A stretch of DNA of 55,510 nucleotides. Source: an uncultured Gammaproteobacteria bacterium. Its GTDB lineage: Bacteria > Patescibacteriota > Microgenomatia > UBA12405. Position numbers and translations under genes: made by a program. This document shows, one piece after another, positions 37,494 to 54,472 of the stretch (the first letter of the stretch is position 1; each line of letters starts with the position of its first letter). The stretch covers positions 1 to 55,510 of the forward strand of contig CAZCFJ010000002.1 in NCBI GenBank assembly GCA_964497945.1. The letters run 5' to 3'. The notes beneath the pieces were generated by a model that ran no database searches, was not told the DNA's origin, and worked only from the letters and a program-made list of their open reading frames with translations.

Positions 37494-38195
37494 ATGAATA
37501 AACTAAAAATAATTTCATTATCATTAGTAGTTGTTTTTTCCTCCCTGTTTCTTTCTGCTTGTGGTAAAAAGAAAACTGAGACCAACAAATCTACTCCTAC
37601 CAAGGGCATTCAAAAAGAATTGGTTCTTTCTGAATCAGAAAAACCAATAATTTCCCTTATTCCCCGCGAGGACGGTCACGAATTAAAACTAAAAATTGAT
37701 AATATTCCTTCAAATATTAGTCAAATCGATTATGAACTTATTTATTCCGCTACCGAAAATGGTTTAACTATGGAAAAAGGTGTCGGCGATACTGTTAAAA
37801 TAACTTCAAAAAATATTGAAAAAGATCTTCTTTTAGGTACTTCTAGCTGCACCAATGGTTGTAAATATAAATATGACACCGGTGTTTCTGAAGGTACTCT
37901 TTCTTTAATTTTTTACACTAACGATAATCAAAGCGCTACTTACGAAACACCATTTATTTTAAAAACTTCAGCTGATATCAAAAAAGACGGCGGTCTAACT
38001 CTCAAAGGTCAAGATTTTTCCATTAAAGCTACCACTACTACCAAAAGTGATTATTTTATTGTCATCAAAAATTACCCTTCTTATTTTTCCGTCTTTTCTA
38101 ACAGCAAAGGTGCTGGAAAAATTACCTCCATCACTCCCACCACGGTTACCAAACAAGATATGACTTCTTTGGTTGGCAACTATACTACCAACTAA
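37494..38195 (+). CDS. lipoprotein of unknown function
   Basis: Signal peptide with the lipobox LFLSAC. Confidence 0.65.
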   Translation: MNKLKIISLSLVVVFSSLFLSACGKKKTETNKSTPTKGIQKELVLSESEKPIISLIPREDGHELKLKIDNIPSNISQIDYELIYSATENGLTMEKGVGDTVKITSKNIEKDLLLGTSSCTNGCKYKYDTGVSEGTLSLIFYTNDNQSATYETPFILKTSADIKKDGGLTLKGQDFSIKATTTTKSDYFIVIKNYPSYFSVFSNSKGAGKITSITPTTVTKQDMTSLVGNYTTN

Positions 38196-39070
38196 TGAAT
38201 TTCCATACCTCTGTTTTACTTAAGGAAAGTATCAGTAATCTTTTTATTGAGTCCAATGGTTTATATATTGATGCCACTTTGGGTCACGGCGGTCATGCTA
38301 TCGAAATTCTCAAACTTGGCGGTGCTGTTTATGGATTTGATCAGGATCCTATCAACTTAAGTATTGCTAATAATCGAATTAAAAAGTTAAATCTTGATTC
38401 AAAATTTGTTCCAGTAAACCAAAATTTTAACAGTATCGAAAAATTTGTTACTCAAAAAATCAAACAAAAAGTCGATGGTTTAATTGCCGATTTAGGTTTA
38501 AGTCAAAGCCAACAAACTGCCAATAATAGGGGATTTTCCTTTAATGACACACTTTCTTTAGATATGCGTCTCGATCCAAAATCTCAAAATTTAACTGCCG
38601 AAGAAATAATTAATACTTATTCTTTTAACGATCTTTATGAAATTTTTACCAAATTCGGTCAGGAACTTTATAGTAAACCGTTAATTCTTCATATTATTAG
38701 ACAACGTCAAAAATCTCCTATTAAATCAGGTGAAAGATTAGCCAATATTATCCGTGATTATTATCAAAAACATCACATTAAAACCAAAATTGATCCGGCC
38801 ACAAAAATATTTTTAAGCCTTCGTATTGCTGTCAATCAAGAAAATAGTAATTTACAAAAACTACTTGAACAAAGTTTAGAAGTAGTGAAACCAGGTGGTA
38901 ATGTTTCCATAATTACTTTCCATTCCGGTGAAGATAGAATTGTTAAACAATTTCTTATTAAGAACTCCAACAGATTAATTTCTCAAAAACCCATCAAACC
39001 TACACTTGAAGAAGTTAAAAATAACCCTTTATCTCGCTCTAGTATTCTTAGATCGTATAAAATAGTTTAA
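38195..39070 (+). CDS. rsmH: 16S rRNA (cytosine1402-N4)-methyltransferase
   Basis: Contains HTSVLLKESI, DATLGHGGHA, DLGLSQSQ and SFHSGEDRIVK-like ITFHSGEDRIVK. Confidence 0.9.
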   Translation: MNFHTSVLLKESISNLFIESNGLYIDATLGHGGHAIEILKLGGAVYGFDQDPINLSIANNRIKKLNLDSKFVPVNQNFNSIEKFVTQKIKQKVDGLIADLGLSQSQQTANNRGFSFNDTLSLDMRLDPKSQNLTAEEIINTYSFNDLYEIFTKFGQELYSKPLILHIIRQRQKSPIKSGERLANIIRDYYQKHHIKTKIDPATKIFLSLRIAVNQENSNLQKLLEQSLEVVKPGGNVSIITFHSGEDRIVKQFLIKNSNRLISQKPIKPTLEEVKNNPLSRSSILRSYKIV

Positions 39071-39321
39071 TGTCCAAAATTTTTACTTGGGTTATCATTA
39101 TTAGTCTGGCTATTCAAATTGGTTTTTCTTTTTTTTATTCCAACGAAATCATTAATCAAAATTATCAACTTGATCAATATCAAACTCAAGTTGATCAACT
39201 TAAATTAAATATTGAATCAGTCGAAAAACAATTATCTAACCTTAGTTCTATAAATAAAATTAGTCAAAGTACCTCTTCAGCCTCCGTTACTATTACTCAA
39301 ACTGTAAAAATTATCAAATAA
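39070..39321 (+). CDS. FtsL-like small bitopic division protein
   Basis: 83 aa with an N-terminal TM and a coiled coil. It occupies the position between rsmH and ftsI. Confidence 0.5.
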   Translation: MSKIFTWVIIISLAIQIGFSFFYSNEIINQNYQLDQYQTQVDQLKLNIESVEKQLSNLSSINKISQSTSSASVTITQTVKIIK

Positions 39322-40973
39322 TGATTCAACGATACCGTTTATTACTCACCTCATTTTTACTCTGTTTTTTTATCATTAGTACTAGATTTTTTTACTGGCA
39401 AATTATCAAAAGTTCCGATCTTAAGGAAAAAGCTATTAGCCAAACATATAAACTCGAAACCAAAAATTCCACCCGCGGTCAAATTTTATCATCAGATGAC
39501 TTTCCTTTAGCCATAAATCAAACTAACTATCAGATTTCAATTTACAAACCAAACCTTAAGGATGATCTAGATTCTCTTTTTCAAAAAATCGAATCTATTC
39601 ATCCTGGGTTTATTACCGAAAATCAAAAAAATCTTGATAACTTTAAAAATAATTCCAAACAACTTTGGATTGATTTACCAACCCTATTCGACATTTCCGA
39701 AAAGAACCAATTTCAGGATATTCCCGGAATTACCACTCGCCAAAATTTAAGTCGTTATTATCCGGAAAATAAACTTGCCAAAGACATTCTTGGGTTTATT
39801 GCCAAAGACGAAGAAGGAACTCAAATTGGTTATGGCGGTCTTGAAAGCTATTACAACAAAAAACTCCAAGGGAAAACCGGATTTAGTTTAGCTCCACAAG
39901 ATGCTACTGGGAAAACCATTCTTACCAAAAAAAGCTGGACCCTTTCTGCCACTGATGGTCAAAATATTCACACCTCTATTAATCGCAGTATTCAATATCA
40001 AGCCGAAAAAATTTTATCAACAGGTATTGAAAAGTATCAAGCCGACTCTGGATCAATTACTATTATGGAAAGTTCTACAGGACAAATTCTTGCCATGACC
40101 AGTCTCATCGCCACTTCATCAGCCACCCCCAGCGCTTCCAAAAACCCGGCCATTGCCGATCTTTTTGAACCTGGATCTATCTTTAAACCAATTATTATGA
40201 GTATGGCCCTTAATCAAAAAGTTATTGACACCAGTTTTATTTGTGAAAAATGTAATTCACCCAGAACTATTGGCGAATACACTATTACCAATTGGGACAA
40301 TGCCACTCATCCCAACGCTACTCTTAAAGACATTATTTTAAATTCTGATAATATCGGCATGAGCTACATTATAACTAAACTAGGTTTAAATAATTTTCTT
40401 AACTATTATCAAAAACTTGGTCTTAATCAAAAAACTGGTATTGATCTCCAAGGTGAAGCCAAACCTACAGTAAAAACTAATTGGCCTGAAATTGATTTAG
40501 CTACCGCTTCTTTCGGACAGGGGATTGTTGTCACTCAAATCAATATGCTTCAAGCCTTCAACGTTATTGCTAACAATGGTCAACTTGTAAAACCCCAAGT
40601 AGCCAAATATTTCACCGACAATTTTGACCGAATATCTTATCCCAAAAAACAAAATTCTTCTCAAGTTTTTTCTCCGGAAATTATTTCCCAAATGAAAGAT
40701 ATTCTTAAATATGCCGTCGAAAATGGTGTTGTTAATCAATTTAGACCTAAAAATTTAGAAGTTTGCGCTAAAAGTGGTACCGCTCAAATAGCCATCAAAG
40801 GCAGTTACACCGATTCATCCACTATTGCCTCATATATCGGCTTTTCCCCTTGTAATAACCCTAAATTCACTATGATTGTTACTATAAATAATCCTAAATC
40901 TTCACCTTGGGGTTCCAGCACTGCTGCCCCAATTTGGTATGAATTAGCCTCAAAAATTGATCATTTGTTATAA
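39321..40973 (+). CDS. ftsI: penicillin-binding protein (class B transpeptidase, FtsI-like)
   Basis: Carries SIFK (SxxK), SDN (SxN) and KSGT (KTG-like), with an N-terminal TM. Confidence 0.85.
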   Translation: MIQRYRLLLTSFLLCFFIISTRFFYWQIIKSSDLKEKAISQTYKLETKNSTRGQILSSDDFPLAINQTNYQISIYKPNLKDDLDSLFQKIESIHPGFITENQKNLDNFKNNSKQLWIDLPTLFDISEKNQFQDIPGITTRQNLSRYYPENKLAKDILGFIAKDEEGTQIGYGGLESYYNKKLQGKTGFSLAPQDATGKTILTKKSWTLSATDGQNIHTSINRSIQYQAEKILSTGIEKYQADSGSITIMESSTGQILAMTSLIATSSATPSASKNPAIADLFEPGSIFKPIIMSMALNQKVIDTSFICEKCNSPRTIGEYTITNWDNATHPNATLKDIILNSDNIGMSYIITKLGLNNFLNYYQKLGLNQKTGIDLQGEAKPTVKTNWPEIDLATASFGQGIVVTQINMLQAFNVIANNGQLVKPQVAKYFTDNFDRISYPKKQNSSQVFSPEIISQMKDILKYAVENGVVNQFRPKNLEVCAKSGTAQIAIKGSYTDSSTIASYIGFSPCNNPKFTMIVTINNPKSSPWGSSTAAPIWYELASKIDHLL

Positions 40974-40986
40974 TTAATCACCTTCA

Positions 40987-42273
40987 ATGCTACAAAAAAT
41001 AAAGAATTTGTTCTTTCATTTACCAAAAAGTATTTTTTATCAAGCCTACTATCATTTTCCCACCAAAAAACTTACTCTTATTGGTATTACTGGAACTGAT
41101 GGAAAAACTACTACTGCTACATTGGTCTATGAAACCCTAAAAAAAGCTGGCATTAATGCTGGTGTTATTACTACTATTAGTGCCAAATACGACGACCATG
41201 AAATTGACACTGGACTTCATATGACCAGTCCTGACCCTTCCGTTATTCAAAAAATATTTAAAACTATGGTTGACGCCGGGATAACTCATGTAGTTTGTGA
41301 AGTCACTGCTCATGCTCTTGATCAATATCGATTTGCTGGTTGTCATTTTGCTGTTTCTGTTATTACTAATACCTCTCATGAACACCTCGATTATTTTAAA
41401 AACATGGACCAATATATTCAAACCAAAGCTAAAATTTTTGATCAATCTGAAATTTGTATTCTTAACAAAGACGATCCATCATACGAAAAAATTATCAAAA
41501 CTTTCCCCAAAAAATTTTTAAGTTACAGTGTCGACAAAAAATCAGATTATCAAGCCACCAACATTATCATTAAATCAAATTCATTATCTTTCAATATTAA
41601 AAATAATTCTATTTTTACTGACAGTCCTTACCGTTACCAAATTTATAATATTCTCACCGCCTTTTCTATTATGGATCAGCTCCAAATTGATCAAAATTTT
41701 TTAATTGAAACTGTCAAAAATTTTCCTCTCACCAAAGGTCGTCGTGAAGAAGTTCCCAACCAGTTAGACATCAAAGCTATAGTTGATTTTGCTCACACCC
41801 CTAACGCTATTAAAAATACATTATCTTCACTTAAAGAAACCAATTCCGGCAAAATCATTGCTATTTTTGGCGCTACCGGTGGTCGTGATCAAAGCAAACG
41901 CCCTCAAATGGGATTAGTCGTCTCTCAATTAGCCGATATTGCCATTATTACTTCAGATGATACCCGCGACGAAGATATTCAAGACATCAATAAACAAATT
42001 ATCAGCGGCATCAAACCAGACTCTGTTTTAGTCGATACTACTGATTTTTCAGAAATTAAAAAAATTATTAAATCCAACAAAAACAAATTTATTTATTTCA
42101 ATATCCCCAACCGACAAGATGCTTTTAATCTAGCCATTCAATTATCACAACCAAAAGATACTATTATTGCTATGGGTAAAGGTCACGAGACCACCATTCT
42201 CCATGGCAAAACGGAATTTCCCTGGTCAGAAACCGAGGCTTTTCGTTCTGCTTTTAAACTCAAACAAAATTAA
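40987..42273 (+). CDS. murE: MurE-like Mur ligase lacking the N-terminal (UDP-binding) domain
   Basis: The P-loop GITGTDGKTTTA starts at about residue 33. Other matches are HVVCEVTAHALDQYR, TNTSHEHLDYF and ITSDDTRDED, which aligns to the MurE DNPR region. 428 aa. Confidence 0.7.
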   Translation: MLQKIKNLFFHLPKSIFYQAYYHFPTKKLTLIGITGTDGKTTTATLVYETLKKAGINAGVITTISAKYDDHEIDTGLHMTSPDPSVIQKIFKTMVDAGITHVVCEVTAHALDQYRFAGCHFAVSVITNTSHEHLDYFKNMDQYIQTKAKIFDQSEICILNKDDPSYEKIIKTFPKKFLSYSVDKKSDYQATNIIIKSNSLSFNIKNNSIFTDSPYRYQIYNILTAFSIMDQLQIDQNFLIETVKNFPLTKGRREEVPNQLDIKAIVDFAHTPNAIKNTLSSLKETNSGKIIAIFGATGGRDQSKRPQMGLVVSQLADIAIITSDDTRDEDIQDINKQIISGIKPDSVLVDTTDFSEIKKIIKSNKNKFIYFNIPNRQDAFNLAIQLSQPKDTIIAMGKGHETTILHGKTEFPWSETEAFRSAFKLKQN

Positions 42274-42274
42274 T

Positions 42275-42874
42275 ATGACTCAATTTAATATTCAAAATCA
42301 ACTTTCGCCGGCAGAAAATTATCAATCAGGCCTTTTACCCCAACGCAACCAAATTAATTTTTGGTATCAAGATTCTAGTAGCCGTTCGAACCTATCCAAT
42401 TTTCAATTAAGTTCAGAAAATCGCCGGATTATTAACAAAACTCAGGAATTTACTTATCAACTTATTTCTCTAAAAGATTTTAATTACACTCCAAAAGTTC
42501 AGAAACAAATTTTTTCCTGGCTCAAACTGTTAGGATGGGATTTCCCCGTTAGTTCAGTTAAAACAATATTCACTAACCATATTTTTAATTATCTTTATAT
42601 TTGGAAAGATCAACAACAAAATACCGTTGCTTATTCAATCTGCTATTTTTCTAAAGAAATAAGTCATATCGCTTATGTTTTTTATGATCCCCAATATAGC
42701 CATGGTAATTTACCTATCAGATTAGTTCTTCAAACAGTTTCTGATAGTCATGATAGGGGATTAAAATATTGTTACCTTGGCCGTTTTTCTTCAGAAACTG
42801 GTTTTTACAAACGCAATATGCCCGGTTTTGAATATTTCGATTCTAAAAATAAACAATGGATTAAGTATCTTTAA
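42275..42874 (+). CDS. ATE_C/Bpt-like (arginyl/leucyl-tRNA--protein transferase C-terminal domain) homologue
   Basis: The start is set at ATG 42275. SSENRRIINK resembles SKNQRR. ISHIAYVFYDPQYSHGNLPIRLVLQ and GLKYCYLGRFSSETGFYKRNMPGFEYF resemble the SAVYTFFDP and YxYLGYW...KMxYKxxFxPxE blocks of the Bpt/ATE1 C-terminal domain. Confidence 0.55.
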   Translation: MTQFNIQNQLSPAENYQSGLLPQRNQINFWYQDSSSRSNLSNFQLSSENRRIINKTQEFTYQLISLKDFNYTPKVQKQIFSWLKLLGWDFPVSSVKTIFTNHIFNYLYIWKDQQQNTVAYSICYFSKEISHIAYVFYDPQYSHGNLPIRLVLQTVSDSHDRGLKYCYLGRFSSETGFYKRNMPGFEYFDSKNKQWIKYL

Positions 42875-47492: not shown

Positions 47493-47534
47493 AAGGCTAA
47501 AGAATATATAATTAAGCTTAAGTTAACCCATTAT

Positions 47535-48356
47535 ATGACAAACACTCCTTTAGTCCAATTAGACAATTTTTATCTCAAACGGGAAGATCAAAATATTACC
47601 GGCTCAGCCAAAGATAGAGCAATTCCATTTCAAATTGAAAATCTTAAAAAAAATGGTTTTACCCAGGCAGTTATTTCTAGCACCGGCAATGCTGCTATTT
47701 CTGCCGCCCACTTTTGTCATCAAGAAAATATTAAATTGACAATTTTTTTGTCACCCCACATTGCCCCAGAAAAATTAAATTTGCTCAAAAAATACGACCA
47801 CGAAATTATTCTTTCACATCAACCAATCAGTGATGCTGTTAAATTTTCAAAATCCCTCCATGCCTATCTTTTACGTCAATCTACTGATCCCTCAAGTCTA
47901 ATCGGTTATCAAACTATTGCCCAGGAGTTAGCAGAACAACTCCCTCAAATTACCAGCATTTTTATTCCTGTTGGCAGTGGGACTACTCTTCTGGGTATTT
48001 CTCAAAAACTTCCTAAAAATGTCAAAATTTTTGGAGCCCAATCGGCTGCTAATCCTACTGTTAGTAAAATTTTCGACCCTAATTTTACCCCGGAAAATCG
48101 ATTAATTACCGATGCTCTTTCGGTTAAGTTTTTACCCAATAAAGACAAAGTTATTAATGCCATCAAAAATAGTTCCGGTTCTTGTCTAACCATTCAAAAC
48201 GAAAATATTGTCACTGCTGATTCTTATTTAAAATCAAAAGACATTATAACCTCTCTCGAAGGTGCTTTATCCTTTGCTGCCTACCAAAAAGCTCAAAAAA
48301 ATAATCTTAACATTGGTCAATATCCCATTATTTTATTAACCGGAGCCAAACGTTAA
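47535..48356 (+). CDS. PLP-dependent enzyme, fold type II (PALP; threonine synthase/cysteine synthase-like)
   Basis: The start is set at ATG 47535 (MTNTPLVQL). The Lys motif is ITGSAKDR. SSTGNAA and the Gly loop PVGSGTTLLG are also present. Confidence 0.7.
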   Translation: MTNTPLVQLDNFYLKREDQNITGSAKDRAIPFQIENLKKNGFTQAVISSTGNAAISAAHFCHQENIKLTIFLSPHIAPEKLNLLKKYDHEIILSHQPISDAVKFSKSLHAYLLRQSTDPSSLIGYQTIAQELAEQLPQITSIFIPVGSGTTLLGISQKLPKNVKIFGAQSAANPTVSKIFDPNFTPENRLITDALSVKFLPNKDKVINAIKNSSGSCLTIQNENIVTADSYLKSKDIITSLEGALSFAAYQKAQKNNLNIGQYPIILLTGAKR

Positions 48357-48357: not shown

Positions 48358-49524
48358 ATGAACCTCTTTGATCAAATTAACCAGTCAAATTATGTTTTTT
48401 ATTTTTTAGTCGTTGATAATTTTTTAGACATAACCTTACCTCAACTAAAAAATTTTCATCTCATTTATTCTTCTACCCCAAAACAAAAAGATTATTTAGA
48501 TTCACAGAATATCCCTTATTTTATTTCTCCAACCAACGATGTTCAAAATAGTGGCAAACTTTTAGCCGATTCTTCAGTCCAAAATTATATAAATTCCACC
48601 TCTAACAATCGACAAATAGTTATTGTTCCTTTTAAACCATCTGCTAAGATTGAATTTATTTGCCGTCAAAACAATTGGATTTGTGCTGCTGTTGATCATC
48701 AACTTAACCGTTTTCTCGAAGATAAAAATGAACTCACCCTTTTCTGTCAAAAAAATAATTTACCCATTATTTCATCGGTTGTAGATTTATTTAATCAAAC
48801 AAATTTTGCTAAATACCAACAACAATTCCAAACCAACCAACTAGTTACCCAAACCCATTTTGGTTGGGCTGGTAAAAGTACCTTTTCTGCCAATAGTTGG
48901 GAAGAAATAAAAAACAGTATTCCTTCAGAAACCAAAGTAAAATTTTCTCCATTTTTAAACGGTTATTCATTATTAAATAATTGCTGTCTAACACAAACCG
49001 GTCTCATTCAAAGTCCTCTGGCTTTACAATACACTGGCCTACCCGAATTTACCTCTAACCCCTTTACCACCGTTGGTCGCCAATGGCCTTGTTTAGCTCC
49101 AGAAGGAATTCAAAATCAAATTAAACAAATCACTACTGACTTTGCCAAAATAATTCAATCATTGTCTTATAAAGGCTTTTTTGGTTTAGATTTTTTAGTT
49201 TCTAATAATCAAGTTTATTTACTAGAATGCAATCCTCGCCTTACTGCCTCTTTTGCTTTTTATACTCAAATTGAAACTAATCAAAACCTTAATCCATTAT
49301 TTCTTTTCCACTTATCTCAATTTATTAACCTACCTTCAATTCCAACAGCTTCAGAATCCCAATTATTAATTGACTCGAGCAAAATTATTGGTTCTGAAAT
49401 CACTCTCAAAAATCAAGACAGTCAAACTATCAAAAAATATCACGATTTTACCGCTTTTTCTCAAAGTCTAGACCCCATTAATATTCCCCAAAATATTGTT
49501 AACCTGCTCCATGAGAAAGGATAA
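48358..49524 (+). CDS. ATP-grasp family ligase
   Basis: Contains GFFGLDFLVSNNQVYLLECNPRLT. 388 aa, starting 2 nt after the PALP gene stop. Confidence 0.65.
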   Translation: MNLFDQINQSNYVFYFLVVDNFLDITLPQLKNFHLIYSSTPKQKDYLDSQNIPYFISPTNDVQNSGKLLADSSVQNYINSTSNNRQIVIVPFKPSAKIEFICRQNNWICAAVDHQLNRFLEDKNELTLFCQKNNLPIISSVVDLFNQTNFAKYQQQFQTNQLVTQTHFGWAGKSTFSANSWEEIKNSIPSETKVKFSPFLNGYSLLNNCCLTQTGLIQSPLALQYTGLPEFTSNPFTTVGRQWPCLAPEGIQNQIKQITTDFAKIIQSLSYKGFFGLDFLVSNNQVYLLECNPRLTASFAFYTQIETNQNLNPLFLFHLSQFINLPSIPTASESQLLIDSSKIIGSEITLKNQDSQTIKKYHDFTAFSQSLDPINIPQNIVNLLHEKG

Positions 49525-50704
49525 ATCACCTTTAATCAGTCTAGTTTTTTTTCTAATCGGAGTCGGTTTTACTTTTATCTCCATCTCTTCTCTCACTGAG
49601 GCCAATAATACCGCCGGTGACAAATTTTATTTTCTTAAAAAACAGGGATTTTGGATTTTAGTCAGCTTAATCGCCCTTTTTATTGCCTCTAAAATAAAAA
49701 TAGAAATAATCAAAAAAATATCATCCCTAATCTATTTTGGATCGATTATTGGATTAATATTAGTTCTAATCCCTGGATTTAGTAATCAAACTTTAGGTGC
49801 CCATAGATGGCTTAATTTAGGAATTTTTAGTTTTCAACCGTCAGAACTATTTAAATTTAGTTCAATTATTTATTTTGCTATCATTTTTTCTCAGGAATCA
49901 AAACGCAACCTTACTAATCTAGTTTTTCATTTAAGTATCCCCTTTGTTCTAATTATTTTAGAACCAAATTTAAGCACTGCCATTCTTACTTCGGCCATAA
50001 TTATTTCTATGTATTATCTTGCTGGAGGCAAAATTATGCCCCTTTTTATATTTTGCGCCAGTCTAATTAGTCTTTGCTTTATTTTAGTTATTAGCTCACC
50101 CTACCGTTCCGCCCGACTTCAAACACTCATTAATCCCGAGTCCAATGGGGACAGCACTTCATACCACAGTAATCAAATTGTTTTATCTATCTCTTCTGGC
50201 GGTTTATTTGGCAAAGGTTTTGCTAATTCTGACCAAAAATATCGTTTTCTACCAAAAATTTCCACTGATTCAATTTTAGCCATAATAGGGGAGGAAATGG
50301 GATTTTTTGGTGTTCTCATTGTCCTTCTAATTTATGTTTTTTTGATCTCTTACTTAATTAAAATATCTACCCTCATAAAAAATGACCAATTTGCTTCACT
50401 TTTAATTTCTGGCGTTGCTTGTTGGATTGCCTATCAATCTCTAATTAATATTTCAGCTATCGCCAACATTATCCCCTTAACTGGGGTACCTTTACCTTTT
50501 GTTTCTTACGGCGGATCATCTCTTTTAACTTTAATGACATCAATTGGTTTAGTTCGCAATCTCGAAAAAAGACACAGTTTGTTGCTATACTCTGATAATG
50601 ATTCCAATCAAAAAAAGGATTCTCATCACCGGAACCCATCTTACTCCGGCCGTCGAACTAATTCGCCAACTTCAACAAGACCAAAAAGTCGATTGGCACA
50701 TTAG
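49496..50704 (+). CDS. ftsW: SEDS-family peptidoglycan polymerase FtsW
   Basis: Contains FQPSELFKF and PLPFVSYGGSSLL. ATG 49511 is an alternative start. The 3' end runs 107 nt into murG. Confidence 0.85.
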   Translation: MLTCSMRKDKSPLISLVFFLIGVGFTFISISSLTEANNTAGDKFYFLKKQGFWILVSLIALFIASKIKIEIIKKISSLIYFGSIIGLILVLIPGFSNQTLGAHRWLNLGIFSFQPSELFKFSSIIYFAIIFSQESKRNLTNLVFHLSIPFVLIILEPNLSTAILTSAIIISMYYLAGGKIMPLFIFCASLISLCFILVISSPYRSARLQTLINPESNGDSTSYHSNQIVLSISSGGLFGKGFANSDQKYRFLPKISTDSILAIIGEEMGFFGVLIVLLIYVFLISYLIKISTLIKNDQFASLLISGVACWIAYQSLINISAIANIIPLTGVPLPFVSYGGSSLLTLMTSIGLVRNLEKRHSLLLYSDNDSNQKKDSHHRNPSYSGRRTNSPTSTRPKSRLAH

Positions 50705-51698
50705 CTACATCGGGCGTCAATCAAATTCCAACGATGTCAAAGATGTCGCTATTGAATCTAAAATGATTCCTTCATTAGGTATCGATTATTTTTCTATTCC
50801 TTGTGGTAAACTTGACCGACGATATTTACCTAATACTCTTATTGGTATTCCTAAAACTATTTCTGGTATTTTTCAAGCCTTTTCATTAGTCAAAAAAACT
50901 CATCCTGACATTGTTATTTCTTTTGGTGGCTACGTTTCTGTTCCTGTTATTTTTAATTCCTATCTAAACCATATTCCTAGTATCACTCATGAACAAACTT
51001 TAACCAATAGCCTTACCACCAGAATTAATAGCCATTTTGTTAACAAAATTGCCTTATCTTTCGATAATTCAGAACAAATTAATCAACTTCCACCTGAAAA
51101 AATTATTATCACTGGTAATCTTCTCCGCAACCAATTATTTCAAAAACAAGAAATTCCACCTTTAATTAAAAATTCAAAATTAAAAATTAAAAATTTAATT
51201 TACATCACCGCCGGTAATCAAGGATCTCATTTTATTAACACCACTATTCAACAATTATTACCAAAATTAAAAAAATTTAATATTATTCATCAAACTGGCA
51301 AAAATGATATTAACCAATTCGAATCTCTCTCATTAATTTATTCGAATTATCTGGCCACTGATTATTTCGACACCGATATTTTACCTTGGATTCTTCAAAA
51401 CGCCGAAGTTGTCATTAGTCGAGCCGGGGCTAACACTAGTCAAGAGATTGTGGCTCTAAAGAAAAAATCAATTTTAGTTCCATTACCTCAAAGTCAACAA
51501 GACGAACAAATTCTCAATGCTAATTGGGTCAAAAAAAATCTGCCCAGTTCCACTATCATTATTCCTCAAACAGAACTTAACCCTGACAGTTTATTCTCGG
51601 CAATTAACCAACTTTTAAAAGTCAAAATTACCAATAAACAAAATTCTTTACCCAAACCAAATTACCAACTGCTCAATCTAATTCATGAAACAATTTAA
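50598..51698 (+). CDS. murG: UDP-GlcNAc:lipid I GlcNAc transferase MurG
   Basis: Contains RILITGTHLTPAVEL (a variant G-loop), FGGYVSVPV, TGNLLR and SRAGANTSQEI. Confidence 0.8.
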   Translation: MIPIKKRILITGTHLTPAVELIRQLQQDQKVDWHISYIGRQSNSNDVKDVAIESKMIPSLGIDYFSIPCGKLDRRYLPNTLIGIPKTISGIFQAFSLVKKTHPDIVISFGGYVSVPVIFNSYLNHIPSITHEQTLTNSLTTRINSHFVNKIALSFDNSEQINQLPPEKIIITGNLLRNQLFQKQEIPPLIKNSKLKIKNLIYITAGNQGSHFINTTIQQLLPKLKKFNIIHQTGKNDINQFESLSLIYSNYLATDYFDTDILPWILQNAEVVISRAGANTSQEIVALKKKSILVPLPQSQQDEQILNANWVKKNLPSSTIIIPQTELNPDSLFSAINQLLKVKITNKQNSLPKPNYQLLNLIHETI

Positions 51699-52071
51699 AA
51701 TTGTTGGCCCCACCATTTTATTCATCATCATTTCAACTATTATTCTAATTTCTATTAGTTCACAACAAAAATCAACTATTTTTGATCCAAAATCTGACAA
51801 AAATAACTTTTATCAAAATCTTAATTTAGCCATTAATACCGCAAAAATATCAACTTCCACTATCACTGTTCGCGACTTTAATAATCAAGTTGAGTTTTAC
51901 CTTTCTCAAGATAATCAAAATATCAAAATTATTCTTTCTGATCAAAAAGATCCTTTCTGGCAAATTTCTTCTTTGCAAGACATCATAAAAACCGCTAGAA
52001 TTAATCATCAAACACTCAAATTAGTTGATTTGAGTCCAGCACATCCTTATGCAACATTCAAAAATAATTAG
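51685..52071 (+). CDS. small bitopic protein in the FtsQ/DivIB position
   Basis: 128 aa with an N-terminal TM. It lies between murG and ftsA with overlaps on both sides. The call rests on position only. Confidence 0.35.
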   Translation: MKQFKIVGPTILFIIISTIILISISSQQKSTIFDPKSDKNNFYQNLNLAINTAKISTSTITVRDFNNQVEFYLSQDNQNIKIILSDQKDPFWQISSLQDIIKTARINHQTLKLVDLSPAHPYATFKNN

Positions 52072-53296
52072 CGGTATCGACATCGGTACCTCCAAAATCA
52101 CTACAATTATTGGGCAGTATTCTGATACTGAAGATAAATTTAATATTGTTGCCGTCTCTTCAATTCCATCCCTTGGCTTTCGTAAAGGTCAAATAATTAA
52201 TATTGAACAAGCCTCATCAACTATTGTTCAAAGTATTGAATCTGCCGAACGCATGGCCGGTTTTCAAATAAATTCTGCTTCAGTTTGTCTTTCCGCTCCA
52301 CACATTGAATCCATCAATTCTCATGGTGTTGTCGCTATTAGTAATCCTAATGGTGAAATTAACCATGAAGACATTGATCGGGTTGTCGACGCCGCCAAAG
52401 CTATTGCTGTTCCTACTGGCAAAGAAATTATTCATATTATTCCCATCAAATATACCGTTGATGGTCAAGAGGGAGTTATTGATCCTGTTGGTATGAACGG
52501 TGTCAGGCTTGAAGTTGAGGCTCACATAATTATTGCCTCCACTCCATCCCTCAAAAATCTCAAAAAATGCCTTGAAGATATTGGTATCAAAATTGACCAA
52601 TTGGTTTATTCCGGATTGGCCACAGCCAAATCTACTCTCACTGAAACTGAAAAAGAATTAGGCGTTGCTCTCATCGATATTGGCGGTAGTATCACTACTT
52701 TGACTATTTTTAATGAAGGCTCCCCAGTTTATTCATCGGTTATTCCGGTCGGCGCCGGTAATGTTACTAATGATTTAGCCATTGGTCTCCGCTTTTCTCT
52801 TGATGATGCCGAAAAAATTAAACTTCGCCTTAATAAAATTTCTGAATCTAAAAAATTTGAAGACGAAATTGAACTCTCTAGTTTTGGTATTCAATCAGAT
52901 GACAAACGTCGTGTCTCTATCCAAACCTCAATCAATGGTATTATTAAACCTCGCTTAGAAGAAATTTTCCATTTAATTTATTCTAAAATTGACGAAAGCG
53001 GCTTTGCCTCAACTATCCCAGCCGGAATTGTTCTTACTGGTGGTGGAGCCCAAACCGTCAATATTAAAGAAACTTGCGAAAAAATTATTCCCTTACCACT
53101 TCGCATTGCCACTCCACCAAAAGTTGGTGGTATTATCGATGATATTATTAATCCTGCCTACAGCAGTTCTATTGGTCTTTTGATGTTTAGTAATGATTTC
53201 AAAAAAAACATTTCAAATTCTCCAAAAAAAACCAAGGTTTCCGCCGGTAGTTTTTTTAGTAAAATCAAAAAATTAATAGAGCCTTTAATGCCTTAA
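52049..53296 (+). CDS. ftsA: cell division protein FtsA
   Basis: Contains ISGIDIGTSKITTIIG, ALIDIGGSITTL and VLTGGGAQ. Confidence 0.9.
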   Translation: MQHSKIISGIDIGTSKITTIIGQYSDTEDKFNIVAVSSIPSLGFRKGQIINIEQASSTIVQSIESAERMAGFQINSASVCLSAPHIESINSHGVVAISNPNGEINHEDIDRVVDAAKAIAVPTGKEIIHIIPIKYTVDGQEGVIDPVGMNGVRLEVEAHIIIASTPSLKNLKKCLEDIGIKIDQLVYSGLATAKSTLTETEKELGVALIDIGGSITTLTIFNEGSPVYSSVIPVGAGNVTNDLAIGLRFSLDDAEKIKLRLNKISESKKFEDEIELSSFGIQSDDKRRVSIQTSINGIIKPRLEEIFHLIYSKIDESGFASTIPAGIVLTGGGAQTVNIKETCEKIIPLPLRIATPPKVGGIIDDIINPAYSSSIGLLMFSNDFKKNISNSPKKTKVSAGSFFSKIKKLIEPLMP

Positions 53297-53302
53297 GTTT
53301 TT

Positions 53303-54472
53303 ATGGGACTTATCAAAACCTTAGCAGGTCAATTCGCTAAAATTAAAGTCATCGGTGTTGGTGGCGGTGGTAATAATGCTATTAATTCCATGATTTCCGA
53401 AGATAGTATCAAAGGTGTCGATTTTATTGCTATCAATACTGACTCTCAAGCTTTATTAAATTCTTTAGCCCCGATAAAAATCCAAATTGGTGAAAAGCTT
53501 ACCAAAGGTTTAGGTGCTGGCGGTAACCCTCAAATGGGTCAAAAAGCCGCTGAAGAATCCCGTGAACGTATCAAAGAAGTCCTAGCCGGTACTGATATGG
53601 TTTTTATTACTGGAGGTATGGGTGGTGGTACTTGTACCGGAGCTGCTCCATTAATTGCTGAAATTGCTAAAAAAGAATTAGGAATTTTAACTATTGCCGT
53701 TGTTACTAAACCTTTTATGTTTGAAGGTACTCGCCGTATGACCAATGCTGAAGAAGGTATTTCTCAACTCCGCAATAATGTTGATACTTTAATTGTTATT
53801 CCTAATCAAAAAGTTATGGAAGTGGTTAATAACAAAGCCACTCTGATAGAGGCCTTTAAAATTGCCGATTCAGTTTTAAACAAAGGCACCAAGGCTATTG
53901 CTGATTTAATTACTATTCCGGGACTAATTAATCTTGATTTTGCCGATATTAAAGCAGTTATGAGTAATGCCGGTTCAGCCCTCATGGGTGTCGGCGAAGC
54001 CGAAGGTGAAGATCGCTCTCGATTGGCCGTCGAGGCAGCTATCCAATCACCACTAGTTGAAGTTGATATTGAAGGAGCCAGGGGAGTTTTAATCAATATT
54101 ACTGGTGGAGAAGATTTAACTATGGCTGAAATCGAAGAATCTGCTCGAACTATTACTCAACGAACCGCTCCCGACGCTAATATTATTTTTGGGGCAACTA
54201 TTGATCCGGAGTTAAAAGGCAAAATAAAAATTTCTGTTATTGCCACCGGTTTCGACAGTACCAAAGCTCATTTTTATCAGTCATTCAAAAAACCAAGTCC
54301 AATTACTGTAAATTCTAATCCTTTAACTCAAACTCCACCATCAGAAACTATCGAATCAATTCCTGTCGATAATCAAGAAATTAAAAAATATTTAGGCGAC
54401 AAAGACATTCCCGCCGGCATTGATATCGTTGATGAGTTCGACATCCCTGCATTTTTACGTAAAAAAAATTAG
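53303..54472 (+). CDS. ftsZ: cell division protein FtsZ
   Basis: Contains IKVIGVGGGGNNAINSM, GGMGGGTCTGAAPLIA and the C-terminal DIPAFLRKK. Confidence 0.97.
   Translation: MGLIKTLAGQFAKIKVIGVGGGGNNAINSMISEDSIKGVDFIAINTDSQALLNSLAPIKIQIGEKLTKGLGAGGNPQMGQKAAEESRERIKEVLAGTDMVFITGGMGGGTCTGAAPLIAEIAKKELGILTIAVVTKPFMFEGTRRMTNAEEGISQLRNNVDTLIVIPNQKVMEVVNNKATLIEAFKIADSVLNKGTKAIADLITIPGLINLDFADIKAVMSNAGSALMGVGEAEGEDRSRLAVEAAIQSPLVEVDIEGARGVLINITGGEDLTMAEIEESARTITQRTAPDANIIFGATIDPELKGKIKISVIATGFDSTKAHFYQSFKKPSPITVNSNPLTQTPPSETIESIPVDNQEIKKYLGDKDIPAGIDIVDEFDIPAFLRKKN

What the first reader, a model, noticed from the sequence alone, without database searches (positions are those of the whole stretch)
38195..54472. 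dcw cluster whose murF/murD/murC/ddl slots are filled by non-Mur enzymes
The gene order read from the ORFs begins rsmH, ftsL-like, ftsI and a murE-like gene that lacks its N-terminal domain. It continues with an ATE_C/Bpt-like gene, an Mpl-like ligase, murA, mraY and a signal-less NlpC/P60 gene. A lysW-like gene follows on the opposite strand. The cluster ends with a PALP enzyme, an ATP-grasp ligase, ftsW, murG, an ftsQ-like gene, ftsA and ftsZ. The canonical order is established as rsmH-ftsL-ftsI-murE-murF-mraY-murD-ftsW-murG-murC-ddl-ftsQ-ftsA-ftsZ. I see no murF, murD, ddl or murB here, and the only MurC-like gene looks more like Mpl, the ligase that adds a preformed peptide. Five unusual genes are tightly packed or overlapping with core genes in exactly those positions. 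My hypothesis is that part of the stem peptide is built, edited or salvaged by a non-canonical route. That route could involve tRNA-dependent addition, an ATP-grasp ligation, a PLP-made amino acid and attachment of a preformed peptide.
Basis: partly seen in the sequence, partly recalled or inferred. Interest (0 to 1): 0.85.

Follow-up and report, generated by a model that had tools for sequence, protein, structure and literature searches.

The report
Carrier-protein module inside cell-wall gene cluster
In this ultra-small (Shapirobacteria, CPR) bacterium the cell-wall gene cluster carries, in place of the usual D-glutamate genes murI and murD and of murC, a conserved and undescribed set of genes, which suggests that part of the cell-wall peptide is made by a new route.

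Summary
It is conserved in about 70 of 80 related species and in many metagenome contigs.

The five odd genes were checked one by one:
- An ATE1/Bpt-fold aminoacyl-tRNA transferase homologue, supported by a confident model whose best fold matches are ATE1.
- A MurC-family ligase that is closer to Mpl than to MurC.
- A cytoplasmic NlpC/P60-type Cys/His enzyme.
- A LysW-type zinc ribbon whose tail almost always ends in EEK.
- A ThrC-like PLP enzyme followed by an ATP-grasp ligase of a distinct family.

Comparative genomics changes the interpretation. Canonical relatives carry murI-murD, or murD alone, in the mraY-ftsW slot, and no locus has both murD and the module there. A sister lineage keeps murB, ddl and murF in the cluster together with the module, so those genes are not replaced. 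In more distant CPR lineages the module sits next to a divergent MurD-family ligase, and its parts occur as fusions (PALP::ATP-grasp and ATP-grasp::NlpC/P60).

My best reading is that this is a carrier-protein system for position 2 (D-Glu) of the stem peptide. In this lineage it appears to be paired with tRNA-dependent addition and Mpl-type loading.

Whether murC, murD, murF and ddl lie elsewhere in the genome could not be tested. I found no description of this system in the literature.

The parts
38195..39070 (+). rsmH (mraW), first gene of the dcw cluster
   Evidence: ORF. Orthologues in relatives carry PF01795 Methyltransf_5.
39070..39321 (+). ftsL-like small membrane protein (83 aa)
   Evidence: Assigned by position, with one hydrophobic segment (KD19 2.15). 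No Pfam match.
39321..40973 (+). ftsI (class B PBP)
   Evidence: ORF. Orthologues carry PBP_dimer and Transpeptidase domains.
40987..42273 (+). murE-like ligase lacking the N-terminal domain; motif DDTR in place of DNPR
   Evidence: TIGR01085 scores 334 bits, above the cut-off of 257, and only Mur_ligase_M and Mur_ligase_C are detected. It aligns to E. coli MurE residues 95-483, and the DDTR motif is present in 72 of 78 orthologues.
42275..42874 (+). ATE1/Bpt-like aminoacyl-tRNA transferase homologue (199 aa)
   Evidence: ATE_C E = 8.9e-5 and NCBIfam arginyltransferase E = 9e-7, both below their cut-offs. The AF2 model has pLDDT 90.9, and the top Foldseek matches are ATE1, followed by MprF, Sba18 and FemX. 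There are 556 homologues, several named arginyltransferase by JGI.
42977..44353 (+). Mpl-like member of the MurC/Mpl ligase family (458 aa)
   Evidence: All three Mur ligase domains are present. It scores 168 bits against E. coli Mpl and 100 bits against E. coli MurC, and a neighbour-joining tree places it with Mpl. Its best PDB match is 3hn7, PaMpl. The NCBIfam HMMs point the other way (murC 235, mpl 185), but both scores are below their cut-offs.
44421..45749 (+). murA
   Evidence: TIGR01072 scores 397 bits, above the cut-off of 393.
45754..46788 (+). mraY
   Evidence: Glycos_transf_4 matches at 2.2e-29, and TIGR00445 scores 160 bits.
46770..47345 (+). Cytoplasmic NlpC/P60-like Cys/His enzyme (191 aa); overlaps the end of mraY by 19 nt
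   Evidence: Cys82 and His141 are invariant. 29 of 35 orthologues match NLPC_P60. There is no hydrophobic segment. In other CPR lineages a strong NLPC_P60 domain is fused to the homologous ATP-grasp.
47328..47492 (-). LysW-type zinc-ribbon protein (54 aa) ending ...ELIEEK
   Evidence: PF21344 scores 38.4 bits, above its cut-off of 27. The C-terminus is [ED]EK in about 130 of 137 orthologues across all architectures, and the Lys is invariant.
47535..48356 (+). Fold-type II PLP enzyme, ThrC-like (273 aa)
   Evidence: PALP matches at 5.8e-44. The best NCBIfam match is threonine synthase PRK08329 at 115 bits, far below its cut-off of 358. The best PDB matches are ThrC and CysK. The start codon follows the JGI gene call.
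48358..49524 (+). ATP-grasp ligase of a distinct family (388 aa)
   Evidence: ATP-grasp_3 matches at 1.5e-7. The AF2 model has pLDDT 92.9. The nearest folds are biotin carboxylase, PurK and PurT at TM about 0.6 and 10-14% identity. The family has 243 representatives at E <= 1e-30.
49511..50704 (+). ftsW
   Evidence: FTSW_RODA_SPOVE matches at 5.4e-85.
50598..51698 (+). murG (the long ORF overlaps the ftsW tail; JGI calls the start at 50763)
   Evidence: Glyco_transf_28 N- and C-terminal domains are both present. The N-terminal domain needs the earlier start at 50598.
51685..52071 (+). ftsQ-like small membrane protein (128 aa)
   Evidence: Assigned by position, with one TM segment. No Pfam match.
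52049..53296 (+). ftsA
   Evidence: ORF. Orthologues carry SHS2_FTSA and FtsA domains.
53303..54472 (+). ftsZ
   Evidence: ORF. Orthologues carry Tubulin and FtsZ_C domains.
36173..38195 (+). glyS plus a 233-aa lipoprotein, conserved directly upstream of the cluster in this lineage (context only; a role is not shown)
   Evidence: Both are present upstream of rsmH in nearly all type-A loci.

Best explanation
The four genes between mraY and ftsW form one functional module that is specific to Patescibacteria. The genes are the NlpC/P60-like enzyme, the LysW-like ...EEK protein, the ThrC-like PLP enzyme and the ATP-grasp ligase. The module serves the position-2 (D-glutamate) step of stem-peptide synthesis, which MurI and MurD perform in canonical relatives.

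Shown:
- The module is conserved as a unit.
- It is mutually exclusive with murD and murI in the mraY-ftsW slot.
- It coexists with murB, ddl and murF in a sister lineage.
- In more distant lineages it sits next to a divergent MurD-family ligase, and its parts occur as fusions.
- In the window's lineage, and in the sister lineage with murB, ddl and murF, it always travels with an ATE1-fold aminoacyl-tRNA transferase homologue and an Mpl-like ligase instead of a canonical MurC.

Inferred mechanism:
1. The ATP-grasp ligates an amino acid, most likely L-Glu through its gamma-carboxylate, to the invariant C-terminal Lys of the small zinc-ribbon carrier. This leaves the alpha-amino acid end free.
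2. The PLP enzyme acts on that free end, most simply by inverting it to the D form.
3. The free alpha-amine is then acylated. A MurD-family ligase would do this with UDP-MurNAc-L-Ala in the lineages that have one. In the window's lineage the ATE-like enzyme would do it with an aminoacyl-tRNA (L-Ala or Gly).
4. The NlpC/P60 enzyme cleaves the gamma-glutamyl-lysine bond, which is the classic bond type for that family, and releases the product.
5. In the window's lineage the released X-D-Glu dipeptide is loaded onto UDP-MurNAc by the Mpl-like ligase.
6. The murE-like ligase, and MurF with Ddl encoded elsewhere, finish the pentapeptide for MraY.
For: Conservation:
- The gene order is identical in L001 and L003.
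- It is present in about 70 of 80 species found through MraY alone.
- It recurs in many of the 80 metagenome contigs.

Slot census:
- 94 loci have the module between mraY and ftsW and no murD.
- 8 loci have murD, with or without murI, and no module.
- No locus has both.
- L075, L082 and L083 read mraY-murI-murD-ftsW.

Sister and distant architectures:
- L080 reads murE-like, ATE-like, Mpl-like, murB (327 bits), murA, ddl (354 bits), murF (270 bits), mraY, module, ftsW. Only murC, murD and murI are missing from an otherwise complete set.
- The ATE-like and Mpl-like genes accompany the module in 76 of 78 loci, and never accompany murD clusters.
- In 18 loci outside the dcw cluster the order is P60-like, MurD-like, lysW-like, PALP, ATP-grasp.
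- L174 reads MurD-like, lysW-like, then a PALP::ATP-grasp fusion. L175 reads MurD-like, lysW-like, PALP, then an ATP-grasp::NlpC/P60 fusion.

Details bearing on mechanism:
- The carrier tail [ED]EK is nearly invariant and the Lys is invariant. A PLP enzyme needs a free alpha-amine, which fits tethering through the substrate's carboxylate rather than LysW-style protection of the amino group (inference).
- The module-linked MurD-like ligases keep the catalytic residues and T321 and K348. They change S415 to F, N or Y, and change T36 and R37 (the roles of these residues are from memory of E. coli MurD structures).
- The ATE1 fold is established. ATE and Bpt enzymes acylate the alpha-amine of N-terminal Asp or Glu (established knowledge).
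- Mpl enzymes can load L-Ala-D-Glu onto UDP-MurNAc, although slowly (PMC3060825).
Against: - Absence of murC, murD, murI, murF and ddl is shown for only 65.6 kb of the contig. Whole genomes could not be read, and dcw content is fluid in this clade. For example, L079 has nothing between mraY and ftsW.
- The PLP enzyme resembles threonine synthase and cysteine synthase more than known fold-type II racemases.
- The ATP-grasp shows no specific affinity to LysX or RimK. Its nearest folds are generic.
- NCBIfam HMMs score the Mpl-like protein higher on murC (235) than on mpl (185).
- The NlpC/P60 gene persists next to mraY in two reduced clusters without the rest of the module (L055 and L068). Its role may therefore be partly separate.
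- No step has any biochemical evidence. The attachment chemistry and the identity of the amino acid are inference.
Confidence: 0.5

Rival explanations
1. The module makes a non-proteinogenic diamino-dicarboxylic acid on a LysW-type carrier, as a DAP or lysine surrogate for position 3 (for example a lanthionine- or lysinoalanine-like compound). The ATP-grasp would load the carrier, the PLP enzyme would carry out a beta-replacement, and NlpC/P60 would release the product for the murE-like ligase.
For: All known LysW systems make Lys, Orn or unusual diamino acids on a carrier (established knowledge). The PLP enzyme is closest to the ThrC, CysK and SbnA beta-replacement enzymes. The murE-like ligase keeps an Arg in its DDTR motif, which in DAP-type MurE binds a distal carboxylate. 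CPR bacteria generally lack amino-acid biosynthesis (PMC6744442).
Against: Where a ligase is physically attached to the module, it is always of the MurD family and never of the MurE family. The module alternates with murI and murD, not with murE, and murE-like is present whether or not the module is. The carrier tail is EEK, not the EDWGE tail of amino-group carriers.
Confidence: 0.17
2. The genes are salvage and editing accessories only. The Mpl-like ligase and the cytoplasmic NlpC/P60 enzyme would recycle or trim host-derived murein peptides, while canonical murC, murD, murI, murF and ddl lie elsewhere in the genome and perform de novo synthesis.
For: Mpl is a recycling enzyme in Gram-negative bacteria (PMC3060825). 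CPR bacteria are episymbionts with sparse metabolism. B. subtilis pairs an NlpC/P60 peptidase (YkfC) with a dipeptide epimerase for peptide catabolism (from memory). Gene absence from the whole genome is untested.
Against: This does not explain the strict exclusivity with murD and murI in the slot. It does not explain why L080-type clusters contain every other cytoplasmic step except murC and murD. It also leaves the carrier, the ATP-grasp, the PLP enzyme and the ATE-like gene without a role, and does not account for their fusions or their linkage to a MurD-family ligase.
Confidence: 0.15
3. The PLP enzyme and the ATP-grasp replace Alr and Ddl by making a D-amino acid and a D-X-D-X dipeptide. 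This is the core of the first reader's idea about the ddl and murF slots.
For: Ddl is an ATP-grasp enzyme, and some fold-type II PLP enzymes are racemases. No ddl, alr or murF is present in the window.
Against: Bona fide ddl (354 bits) and murF sit in the same cluster as the module in L080, L090 and L102. The window's ATP-grasp scores only 15-18 bits on the Ddl models. The module's partner ligase elsewhere is MurD-like, not MurF-like.
Confidence: 0.06
4. The module is a protein-tail modification cycle unrelated to precursor chemistry. In this view a ligase and a peptidase act on the EEK tail of a small regulator, comparable to tubulin tyrosination or RimK acting on S6, and the genes merely reside in the dcw cluster.
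For: The combination of an ATP-grasp, a papain-like peptidase and an acidic C-terminal tail resembles TTL with vasohibin and RimK systems (from memory). Some family members are fused to the RimK-associated PF05618 protease or to a GNAT domain.
Against: The module is linked to Mur ligases or dcw genes in five different architectures. A PLP enzyme is always present, which implies amino-acid chemistry.
Confidence: 0.07

Closest known systems
Canonical dcw cluster and Mur pathway (MurA-F, MurI, Ddl, MraY, MurG)
   Same: The backbone rsmH, ftsL, ftsI, murE ... mraY ... ftsW, murG, ftsQ, ftsA, ftsZ is in the canonical order. murA, mraY, murG and the murE core are recognisable orthologues.
   Different: murC is replaced by an Mpl-like paralogue. 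murD and murI are absent from their slot, which holds four non-Mur genes. An ATE-like gene lies between murE and the Mpl-like gene. murF, ddl and murB are not in the cluster.
LysW/LysX amino-group carrier protein systems (Thermus and Sulfolobus lysine and arginine synthesis; Streptomyces DADH)
   Same: A zinc-ribbon protein of about 54 aa with an acidic C-terminal tail is encoded next to an ATP-grasp ligase and a release hydrolase. Glu or its homologue is the classical cargo.
   Different: The tail ends in EEK with an invariant Lys, not EDWGE with a terminal Glu. The ATP-grasp is not of the LysX/RimK family. There are no LysZ, LysY or LysJ homologues. The hydrolase is NlpC/P60 rather than the M20 peptidase LysK. 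A fold-type II PLP enzyme is present. The context is Mur ligases and dcw genes.
Mpl (murein peptide ligase) recycling route of Gram-negative bacteria
   Same: The window's ligase is nearest to Mpl by pairwise score, by tree and by best PDB match. Mpl attaches preformed peptides, including L-Ala-D-Glu at a low rate, to UDP-MurNAc.
   Different: It is only 27% identical to E. coli Mpl and below the NCBIfam mpl cut-off. It sits in the murC role inside a dcw cluster of a monoderm-type CPR bacterium. No AmpD, AmpG or LdcA context was seen.
tRNA-dependent peptidoglycan transferases (FemXAB, MurM/N) and ATE1/Bpt/Aat N-end-rule transferases
   Same: The ATE-like gene has the GNAT-type fold of aminoacyl-tRNA transferases. 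Canonical relatives (L075, L081, L082) carry a FemAB-family gene in their cluster.
   Different: It is closest to ATE1/Bpt, not to Fem. It is only 199 aa, with no Cys-rich N-terminal region. Its acceptor and donor are unknown.
MurD2/MurL of Xanthomonas (an alternative D-Glu route: L-Glu is added and then epimerised on the nucleotide)
   Same: It is a precedent for bypassing MurI by changing when and where the Glu stereocentre is inverted, using a divergent MurD.
   Different: The proteins are unrelated: there is no MurL homologue here, and no carrier, ATP-grasp or PLP enzyme there. This comparison is from memory.
Bifunctional ligase/amidase pairs (glutathionylspermidine synthetase/amidase; TTL with vasohibin; PylC)
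   Same: An ATP-grasp amide ligase is coupled, sometimes fused, to a papain-like or CHAP amidase that acts on the same bond. PylC shows that an ATP-grasp enzyme can acylate a lysine epsilon-amine.
   Different: These are analogies of logic only, with no specific homology. They are from memory.

Membership tests
LysW / amino-group carrier protein | Small zinc-ribbon globular domain (two CxxC pairs) | tested here: met
   PF21344 scores 38.4 bits, above its cut-off of 27. The CPDC and CGEC pairs are conserved.
LysW / amino-group carrier protein | C-terminal EDWGE-type tail ending in the Glu whose gamma-carboxylate carries the cargo | tested here: not met
   The tail is [ED]EK with an invariant terminal Lys in about 130 of 137 orthologues. 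TIGR01206 scores 32 bits, below its cut-off of 53.
LysW / amino-group carrier protein | Partner ATP-grasp of the LysX/RimK family, plus LysZ, LysY, LysJ and LysK | tested here: not met
   There is no RimK or LysX match. The nearest folds are biotin carboxylase and PurK. No kinase, reductase or aminotransferase genes are in the module.
NlpC/P60 papain-like hydrolases | Conserved catalytic Cys (DCSG-type motif) and downstream His | tested here: met
   Cys82 in GIDCSGL and His141 are invariant in 35 orthologues.
NlpC/P60 papain-like hydrolases | Significant match to PF00877 | tested here: inconclusive
   The window protein matches at E = 0.023. 29 of 35 orthologues match, best 4e-6, and all are below the gathering score. 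Fused homologous systems carry strong NLPC_P60 domains at 1e-17 to 1e-19. No structure was predicted.
ATE1/Bpt aminoacyl-tRNA-protein transferases | GNAT-type ATE fold | tested here: met
   The AF2 model has pLDDT 90.9. The top 8 Foldseek matches are human and yeast ATE1 (E = 1.6e-9 to 9e-7, TMq 0.64-0.73).
ATE1/Bpt aminoacyl-tRNA-protein transferases | Score above the curated family cut-offs, and an N-terminal Cys-rich ATE_N domain | tested here: not met
   ATE_C scores 23.5 bits, below 25. The NCBIfam arginyltransferase models score 21-28 bits, below 170-267. No ATE_N match was found.
ATE1/Bpt aminoacyl-tRNA-protein transferases | Use of an aminoacyl-tRNA donor | not testable with these tools
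   This needs biochemistry.
Mpl (UDP-MurNAc:tripeptide ligase) | Closer to characterised Mpl than to MurC | tested here: met
   E. coli Mpl scores 168 bits over residues 1-458, against 100 bits for E. coli MurC. The neighbour-joining tree agrees. The best PDB match is 3hn7, PaMpl.
Mpl (UDP-MurNAc:tripeptide ligase) | Reaches the NCBIfam equivalog cut-off (TIGR01081) | tested here: not met
   It scores 185 bits, below 389. The murC model scores 235 bits, below 335.
Mpl (UDP-MurNAc:tripeptide ligase) | Ligates preformed peptides to UDP-MurNAc | not testable with these tools
   This needs an enzyme assay.
MurE | Three-domain Mur ligase that includes the N-terminal UDP-binding domain | tested here: not met
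   It aligns to E. coli MurE residues 95-483 only. ftsI ends 13 nt upstream, so there is no room for an N-domain.
MurE | Central and C-terminal domains that score as the MurE subfamily | tested here: met
   TIGR01085 scores 334 bits, above its cut-off of 257.
D-Ala-D-Ala ligase (Ddl) | Match to the Ddl family models | tested here: not met
   The window's ATP-grasp scores 15-18 bits (E about 1e-3) on the Ddl models. True ddl coexists with the module in L080.
Threonine synthase | Reaches the family cut-off, with the ThrC N-domain and the phosphate-binding Arg | tested here: not met
   The best model scores 115 bits, below 358, and the alignment starts at profile position 63. Reading the sequence, the motif is QSTDPSSLIGYQT. 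From memory, ThrC has NSxNPxRxxGQ at this position, so the Arg is replaced.
MurD (the ligase attached to the module in other lineages; none is present in the window) | MurD equivalog score and the residue that binds the D-Glu gamma-carboxylate | tested here: inconclusive
   The L109 protein scores 188 bits, below 212, and its N-terminal 108 aa do not align. The catalytic residues and T321 and K348 are kept, while S415 is F, N or Y.

The most novel reading that the evidence does not exclude
In Shapirobacteria-type CPR bacteria, MurC, MurI and MurD are truly absent. The L-Ala(or Gly)-D-Glu part of the peptidoglycan stem is instead assembled off the nucleotide on a small ribosomally made carrier protein. 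In this reading the steps are:
1. An ATP-grasp ligase tethers Glu to the carrier's C-terminal Lys.
2. A PLP enzyme inverts the tethered Glu.
3. An ATE1-like enzyme adds residue 1 from an aminoacyl-tRNA.
4. An NlpC/P60 enzyme releases the dipeptide.
5. An Mpl-type ligase loads the dipeptide onto UDP-MurNAc.

This would be a carrier-protein-dependent and tRNA-dependent branch of an otherwise universal pathway.
Probability: 0.25. Interest if true: 0.93.

Novelty: new variant of a known kind. Interest (0 to 1): 0.8.

Why it matters
The cytoplasmic Mur pathway (MurC to MurF, with MurI and Ddl) is treated as nearly invariant across bacteria with walls, and it is a major antibiotic target.

This finding shows a conserved gene set that is widespread in CPR bacteria. 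The ATP-grasp family alone has 243 representative clusters at E <= 1e-30. The set is physically tied to Mur ligases and sits where the D-glutamate genes normally are. It combines a LysW-type carrier protein, a PLP enzyme, an ATP-grasp ligase, a papain-like hydrolase, an aminoacyl-tRNA transferase homologue and an Mpl-like ligase.

If it replaces MurC, MurI and MurD, three things would follow:
- It would be a new biosynthetic logic for peptidoglycan.
- It would extend carrier-protein (LysW-type) chemistry beyond amino-acid synthesis.
- It would explain how organisms with minimal metabolism obtain D-Glu.

Even in the modest reading, as an alternative D-Glu supply for a divergent MurD, it assigns a testable role to five families that are currently annotated only as hypothetical or generic domain proteins. 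The proteins are small and soluble, so the hypothesis can be tested directly in vitro.

Tried and rejected
1. I looked for mur and ddl genes in the rest of the window and in 10 kb more of the same contig. None were found, but this covers only about 65 kb.

2. I tried to detect MurD in module-bearing genomes by searching with the nearest canonical MurD. I then looked for contig-length fingerprints of the long module contigs (1,117,440, 998,299, 949,187 bp and others). The top 120 hits were saturated with Patescibacteria MurD proteins at about 50% identity, and none matched, so the result is uninformative. The one hit labelled 'Shapirobacteria' (P0227) lies in a canonical murF-mraY-murD-ftsW cluster of another lineage.

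3. Literature searches found no description of this system:
   - dcw with CPR;
   - Microgenomates or Shapirobacteria with peptidoglycan;
   - LysW with ATP-grasp, Mur ligase or NlpC;
   - Mpl with Patescibacteria.

4. Sequence searches of the PDB with the P60-like and ATE-like proteins or their profiles gave nothing significant. The ATE-like assignment needed a structure model.

5. The idea that the ATP-grasp is LysX-, RimK- or Ddl-like was rejected on HMM and fold evidence.

6. The idea that ORFs inserted between the P60-like and lysW-like genes in some relatives are MurD remnants was rejected. They are unrelated and sporadic.

7. The Rfam scan found no RNA family in the window. Promoter-like and terminator-like sites are not enriched above shuffled controls.

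8. I considered the missing MurE N-domain as a hallmark of the new route. I dropped it because the canonical-type locus L079 has the same short MurE.

Full report
**1. The observation**

The window has about 32% G+C. Between 38195 and 54472 it holds 17 ORFs, 16 on the + strand. Eight junctions overlap and the largest gap is 102 nt.

The core genes are clear from Pfam and NCBIfam:
- murA scores 397 bits against a cut-off of 393.
- mraY, ftsW, murG, ftsA, ftsZ, rsmH and ftsI are recognisable; ftsI was not scanned directly and is assigned from its sequence, its position and its orthologues.

The murE-like protein scores as the MurE subfamily (334 bits, cut-off 257). It has only the middle and C-terminal domains and aligns to E. 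coli MurE residues 95-483. ftsI ends 13 nt upstream, so the N-terminal domain really is missing.

- An ATE_C-like gene. The sequence match is weak (23.5 bits).
- A three-domain MurC/Mpl-family ligase.
- A 191-aa protein without a hydrophobic segment.
- A 54-aa LysW-type zinc ribbon on the minus strand (PF21344, 38 bits, cut-off 27).
- A PALP enzyme (5.8e-44), followed 1 nt later by an ATP-grasp (ATP-grasp_3, 1.5e-7).

The rest of the window is mostly a glycosyltransferase and polysaccharide cluster. It contains no murB, murC, murD, murF, ddl, murI or alr.

The window is the first 55.5 kb of a 91.9-kb JGI contig. The next 10 kb hold ileS, a rodA-like gene, rplU, rpmA, parB, lepB and ispG, again with no Mur gene.

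**2. Identity of the odd genes**

ATE-like gene:
- There are 556 homologues, several named arginyltransferase by JGI.
- An AlphaFold2 model built on 36 of them has pLDDT 90.9.
- Its best PDB matches are human and yeast ATE1 (E = 1.6e-9, TMq 0.64-0.73). These are followed by MprF aminoacyl-PG synthases, the aminoacyl-tRNA-dependent peptide synthase Sba18, and FemX. All of these are aminoacyl-tRNA transferases.

MurC-like gene:
- E. coli Mpl matches it over its full length at 168 bits. E. coli MurC matches at 100 bits.
- A neighbour-joining tree places all such proteins from module-bearing loci with Mpl, and the canonical Patescibacteria MurC proteins with E. coli MurC.
- The best PDB sequence match is 3hn7, the P. 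arcticus Mpl structure.
- The NCBIfam HMMs rank murC (235) above mpl (185), but both are below their cut-offs.
- I therefore call it Mpl-like, not Mpl.

P60-like gene:
- 35 orthologues share an invariant Cys in GIDCSGL and an invariant His.
- 29 of 35 give sub-threshold NLPC_P60 matches.

PLP enzyme:
- It is closest to archaeal-type threonine synthase and cysteine synthase, but far below any family cut-off.

ATP-grasp:
- The model has pLDDT 92.9.
- It resembles biotin carboxylase, PurK and PurT only generically (TM about 0.6, 10-14% identity).
- It has no LysX, RimK or Ddl affinity.

**3. Conservation and organism**

The ATP-grasp has 418 close homologues, named at best 'ATP-grasp domain-containing protein [Candidatus Shapirobacteria/Woesebacteria]'. 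Two relatives at 57-64% identity have exactly the same gene order.

A scan of one genome per GTDB species with MraY alone returned 217 relatives. That query does not depend on the odd genes. I mapped the best 80 with the window's proteins:
- About 70 keep the complete order glyS, lipoprotein, rsmH, ftsL, ftsI, murE-like, ATE-like, Mpl-like, murA, mraY, P60-like, lysW-like (reverse strand), PALP, ATP-grasp, ftsW, murG, ftsQ-like, ftsA, ftsZ.
- Protein identities fall as low as about 35%.

I call this architecture A.

**4. What relatives show**

The more distant loci from the same scan are the informative ones.

- L075, L082 and L083 are canonical. They read murC (360 bits, above the cut-off), murB, murA, ... 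murF, ... a FemAB-family gene, ... mraY, murI, murD, ftsW, murG.
- L080, and with it L087-L105 from a metagenome scan, form architecture B. It reads murE-like, ATE-like, Mpl-like, murB, murA, ddl, murF, mraY, P60-like, lysW-like (reverse strand), PALP, ATP-grasp, ftsW, murG. Architecture B therefore contains every cytoplasmic step except MurC, MurD and MurI, next to the full set of odd genes.

I counted what lies between mraY and ftsW in all loci that cover the interval:
- 94 loci have the four-gene module and no murD.
- 8 loci (6 of them independent) have murD, with or without murI, and no module.
- 2 loci have only the P60-like gene.
- 2 loci have nothing.
- No locus has both.

Half of the loci were retrieved through the ATP-grasp, so the proportions are biased. 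The exclusivity is not.

The ATE-like and Mpl-like genes accompany the module in 76 of 78 loci. They never accompany murD clusters, which have a canonical murC instead.

Two conclusions follow:
- The module stands in for murI and murD, and the ATE-like and Mpl-like genes stand in for murC and the Fem-type gene.
- murF, ddl and murB are not replaced by anything here. Their absence from architecture A is most simply relocation.

**5. The module beyond the dcw cluster**

In 18 metagenome loci (architecture C) the module lies outside the dcw cluster. There it reads P60-like, a MurD-family ligase of 467 aa, lysW-like (reverse strand), PALP, ATP-grasp. It is flanked by a GT4 glycosyltransferase, a phosphatase, a SepP-like undecaprenyl-diphosphatase, prfB and ftsEX.

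That ligase scores 188 bits on the murD model (cut-off 212), and its first 108 residues do not align. It keeps the catalytic residues and T321 and K348. It changes S415, which in E. coli MurD contacts the D-Glu gamma-carboxylate, to F, N or Y. It also changes T36 and R37 to hydrophobic residues (the residue roles are from memory).

A full HMMER search of 1.84 billion representatives found 243 relatives of the ATP-grasp at E <= 1e-30 and 948 at E <= 1e-10. Among them are natural fusions:
- ATP-grasp::NlpC/P60, in four representatives with NLPC_P60 at 1e-17 to 1e-19. One of these is from Peregrinibacteria.
- PALP::ATP-grasp.

Their contexts are again tied to a MurD-family ligase:
- L174 reads MurD-family ligase, lysW-like (reverse strand), PALP::ATP-grasp, with mraY nearby.
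- L175 reads MurD-family ligase, lysW-like (reverse strand), PALP, ATP-grasp::NlpC/P60.

The four proteins are therefore one functional unit. Its constant companion outside architectures A and B is a MurD-type ligase.

**6. The carrier tail**

Across all architectures, 137 LysW-like proteins end in [ED]EK. The counts are IEEK 57, VEEK 34 and EEEK 31, with others such as NEEK and EDEK. The Lys is invariant. Three proteins carry one extra Gly after the Lys.

Canonical LysW ends in EDWGE and carries its cargo on the terminal Glu side chain (established knowledge). The window protein also scores below the LysW equivalog cut-off (32 bits against 53). This is a distinct subfamily.

**7. Mechanism**

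The following points are shown:
- The unit is conserved.
- It alternates with murI and murD.
- It coexists with murB, ddl and murF.
- It is linked to a MurD-type ligase, and its parts occur as fusions.
- The ATE-like gene has the ATE1 fold.
- The ligase is closer to Mpl than to MurC.

The rest is inference. A PLP enzyme needs a free alpha-amine on its substrate. That is incompatible with LysW-style protection of the amino group. It is compatible with tethering the substrate through a carboxylate to the invariant Lys. The proposed steps are:

1. The ATP-grasp forms an N-epsilon-(gamma-glutamyl)-lysine link between L-Glu and the carrier. PylC is a precedent for an ATP-grasp enzyme that acylates a lysine epsilon-amine.
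2. The PLP enzyme inverts the free alpha-centre.
3. The alpha-amine is acylated. A MurD-type ligase does this in architecture C and in L174 and L175, which would fit its altered gamma-carboxylate pocket. In architectures A and B the ATE-like enzyme does it with an aminoacyl-tRNA. ATE and Bpt enzymes acylate N-terminal Asp or Glu.
4. The NlpC/P60 enzyme cleaves the gamma-D-glutamyl-lysine bond, which is the family's classic bond.
5. In architectures A and B the dipeptide is loaded onto UDP-MurNAc by the Mpl-like ligase. Mpl enzymes accept L-Ala-D-Glu, although slowly (PMC3060825).

I give 0.5 to the general statement that this is a module for the position-2 step. I give about 0.25 to the full replacement scenario.

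**8. Weaknesses**

- Whole genomes could not be read. An attempt to find MurD from module-bearing genomes by contig-length fingerprint was swamped by thousands of Patescibacteria MurD proteins.
- dcw content is fluid in this clade. L079 has nothing between mraY and ftsW.
- The PLP enzyme looks more like a beta-replacement or ThrC-type enzyme than a racemase. This keeps alive the rival idea that the module makes an unusual diamino acid.
- The P60-like gene persists alone next to mraY in two reduced clusters (L055 and L068).
- The short MurE also occurs with a canonical murC (L079).
- There is no biochemistry for any step.

**9. Novelty**

Eight literature searches found nothing on this system. 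Database names are 'hypothetical' or generic domain names.

The components belong to known families, and the carrier plus ATP-grasp logic is known from LysW systems. I therefore rate it a new variant of a known kind. The combination, the EEK tail and the peptidoglycan context are undescribed. If MurC, MurI and MurD are truly absent, it would be a new branch of a near-universal pathway.

Noticed in passing
window 36173-38195: Glycyl-tRNA synthetase and a 233-aa lipoprotein lie directly upstream of rsmH. This pairing is conserved in nearly all architecture-A loci. It is curious next to a cluster that encodes an aminoacyl-tRNA transferase homologue.
   Followed up: partly
window 1-33554: A large surface-polysaccharide cluster. 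It contains many GT2 and GT4 glycosyltransferases, a Wzy_C-like protein, Bac_transf, DUF4012, UDP-glucose dehydrogenase, an NAD epimerase, a hexapeptide acyltransferase and a mannose-1-P guanylyltransferase-like gene.
   Followed up: partly
window 10989-11345: An isolated Gp49/HigB-like toxin ORF (PF05973, E = 8e-17) lies inside the polysaccharide region.
   Followed up: no
relatives, junction equivalent to window 47328-47345 (for example L048:9802-10854, L096:8027-8800, L025:8076-8729): The tail-to-tail junction between the P60-like and lysW-like genes is an insertion hot spot. At least 17 loci carry unrelated extra ORFs of 92-350 aa there. None is related to Mur ligases.
   Followed up: partly
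L055:6160-16208 and L068:7804-15222: Two species have reduced clusters: rsmH, (ftsI), murE-like, mraY, P60-like, (ftsW), murG, ftsA, ftsZ. They lack the ATE-like, Mpl-like, murA, lysW-like, PALP and ATP-grasp genes. These genes were either relocated or wall synthesis is being lost.
   Followed up: no
L004, L006-L009, L012-L015, L025 and others (record titles): Many GTDB genome records that carry this Shapirobacteria-type cluster are titled 'uncultured Gammaproteobacteria' or 'uncultured Pseudomonadales', and one is titled 'Candidatus Methanoperedens'. These are evidently mislabelled MAGs.
   Followed up: no
L170:11098-14913 (downstream of the window), L001:16340-20155: A second FtsW/RodA-family paralogue follows ileS just downstream of ftsZ. 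This arrangement is conserved in relatives.
   Followed up: no
P0499, P0506: Other members of the same ATP-grasp family are fused to a GNAT acetyltransferase domain or to the RimK-associated PF05618 'Zn_protease' domain. This hints that the family has further, non-peptidoglycan uses.
   Followed up: no
window 47493-47557: The lysW-like gene is antisense to its neighbours in every architecture seen. The best minus-strand promoter-like site (TGGACT-16-TATAAT, 47557-47530) lies just upstream of it, inside the start of the PALP gene. Promoter-like sites are not enriched overall, so this is only a pointer.
   Followed up: partly
window 50598-50704: The long murG ORF overlaps the 3' end of ftsW by 107 nt. 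The FtsW C-terminal tail is low-complexity (Ser-, Arg- and Pro-rich). JGI calls a shorter murG starting at 50763, which would remove part of the N-terminal domain.
   Followed up: partly
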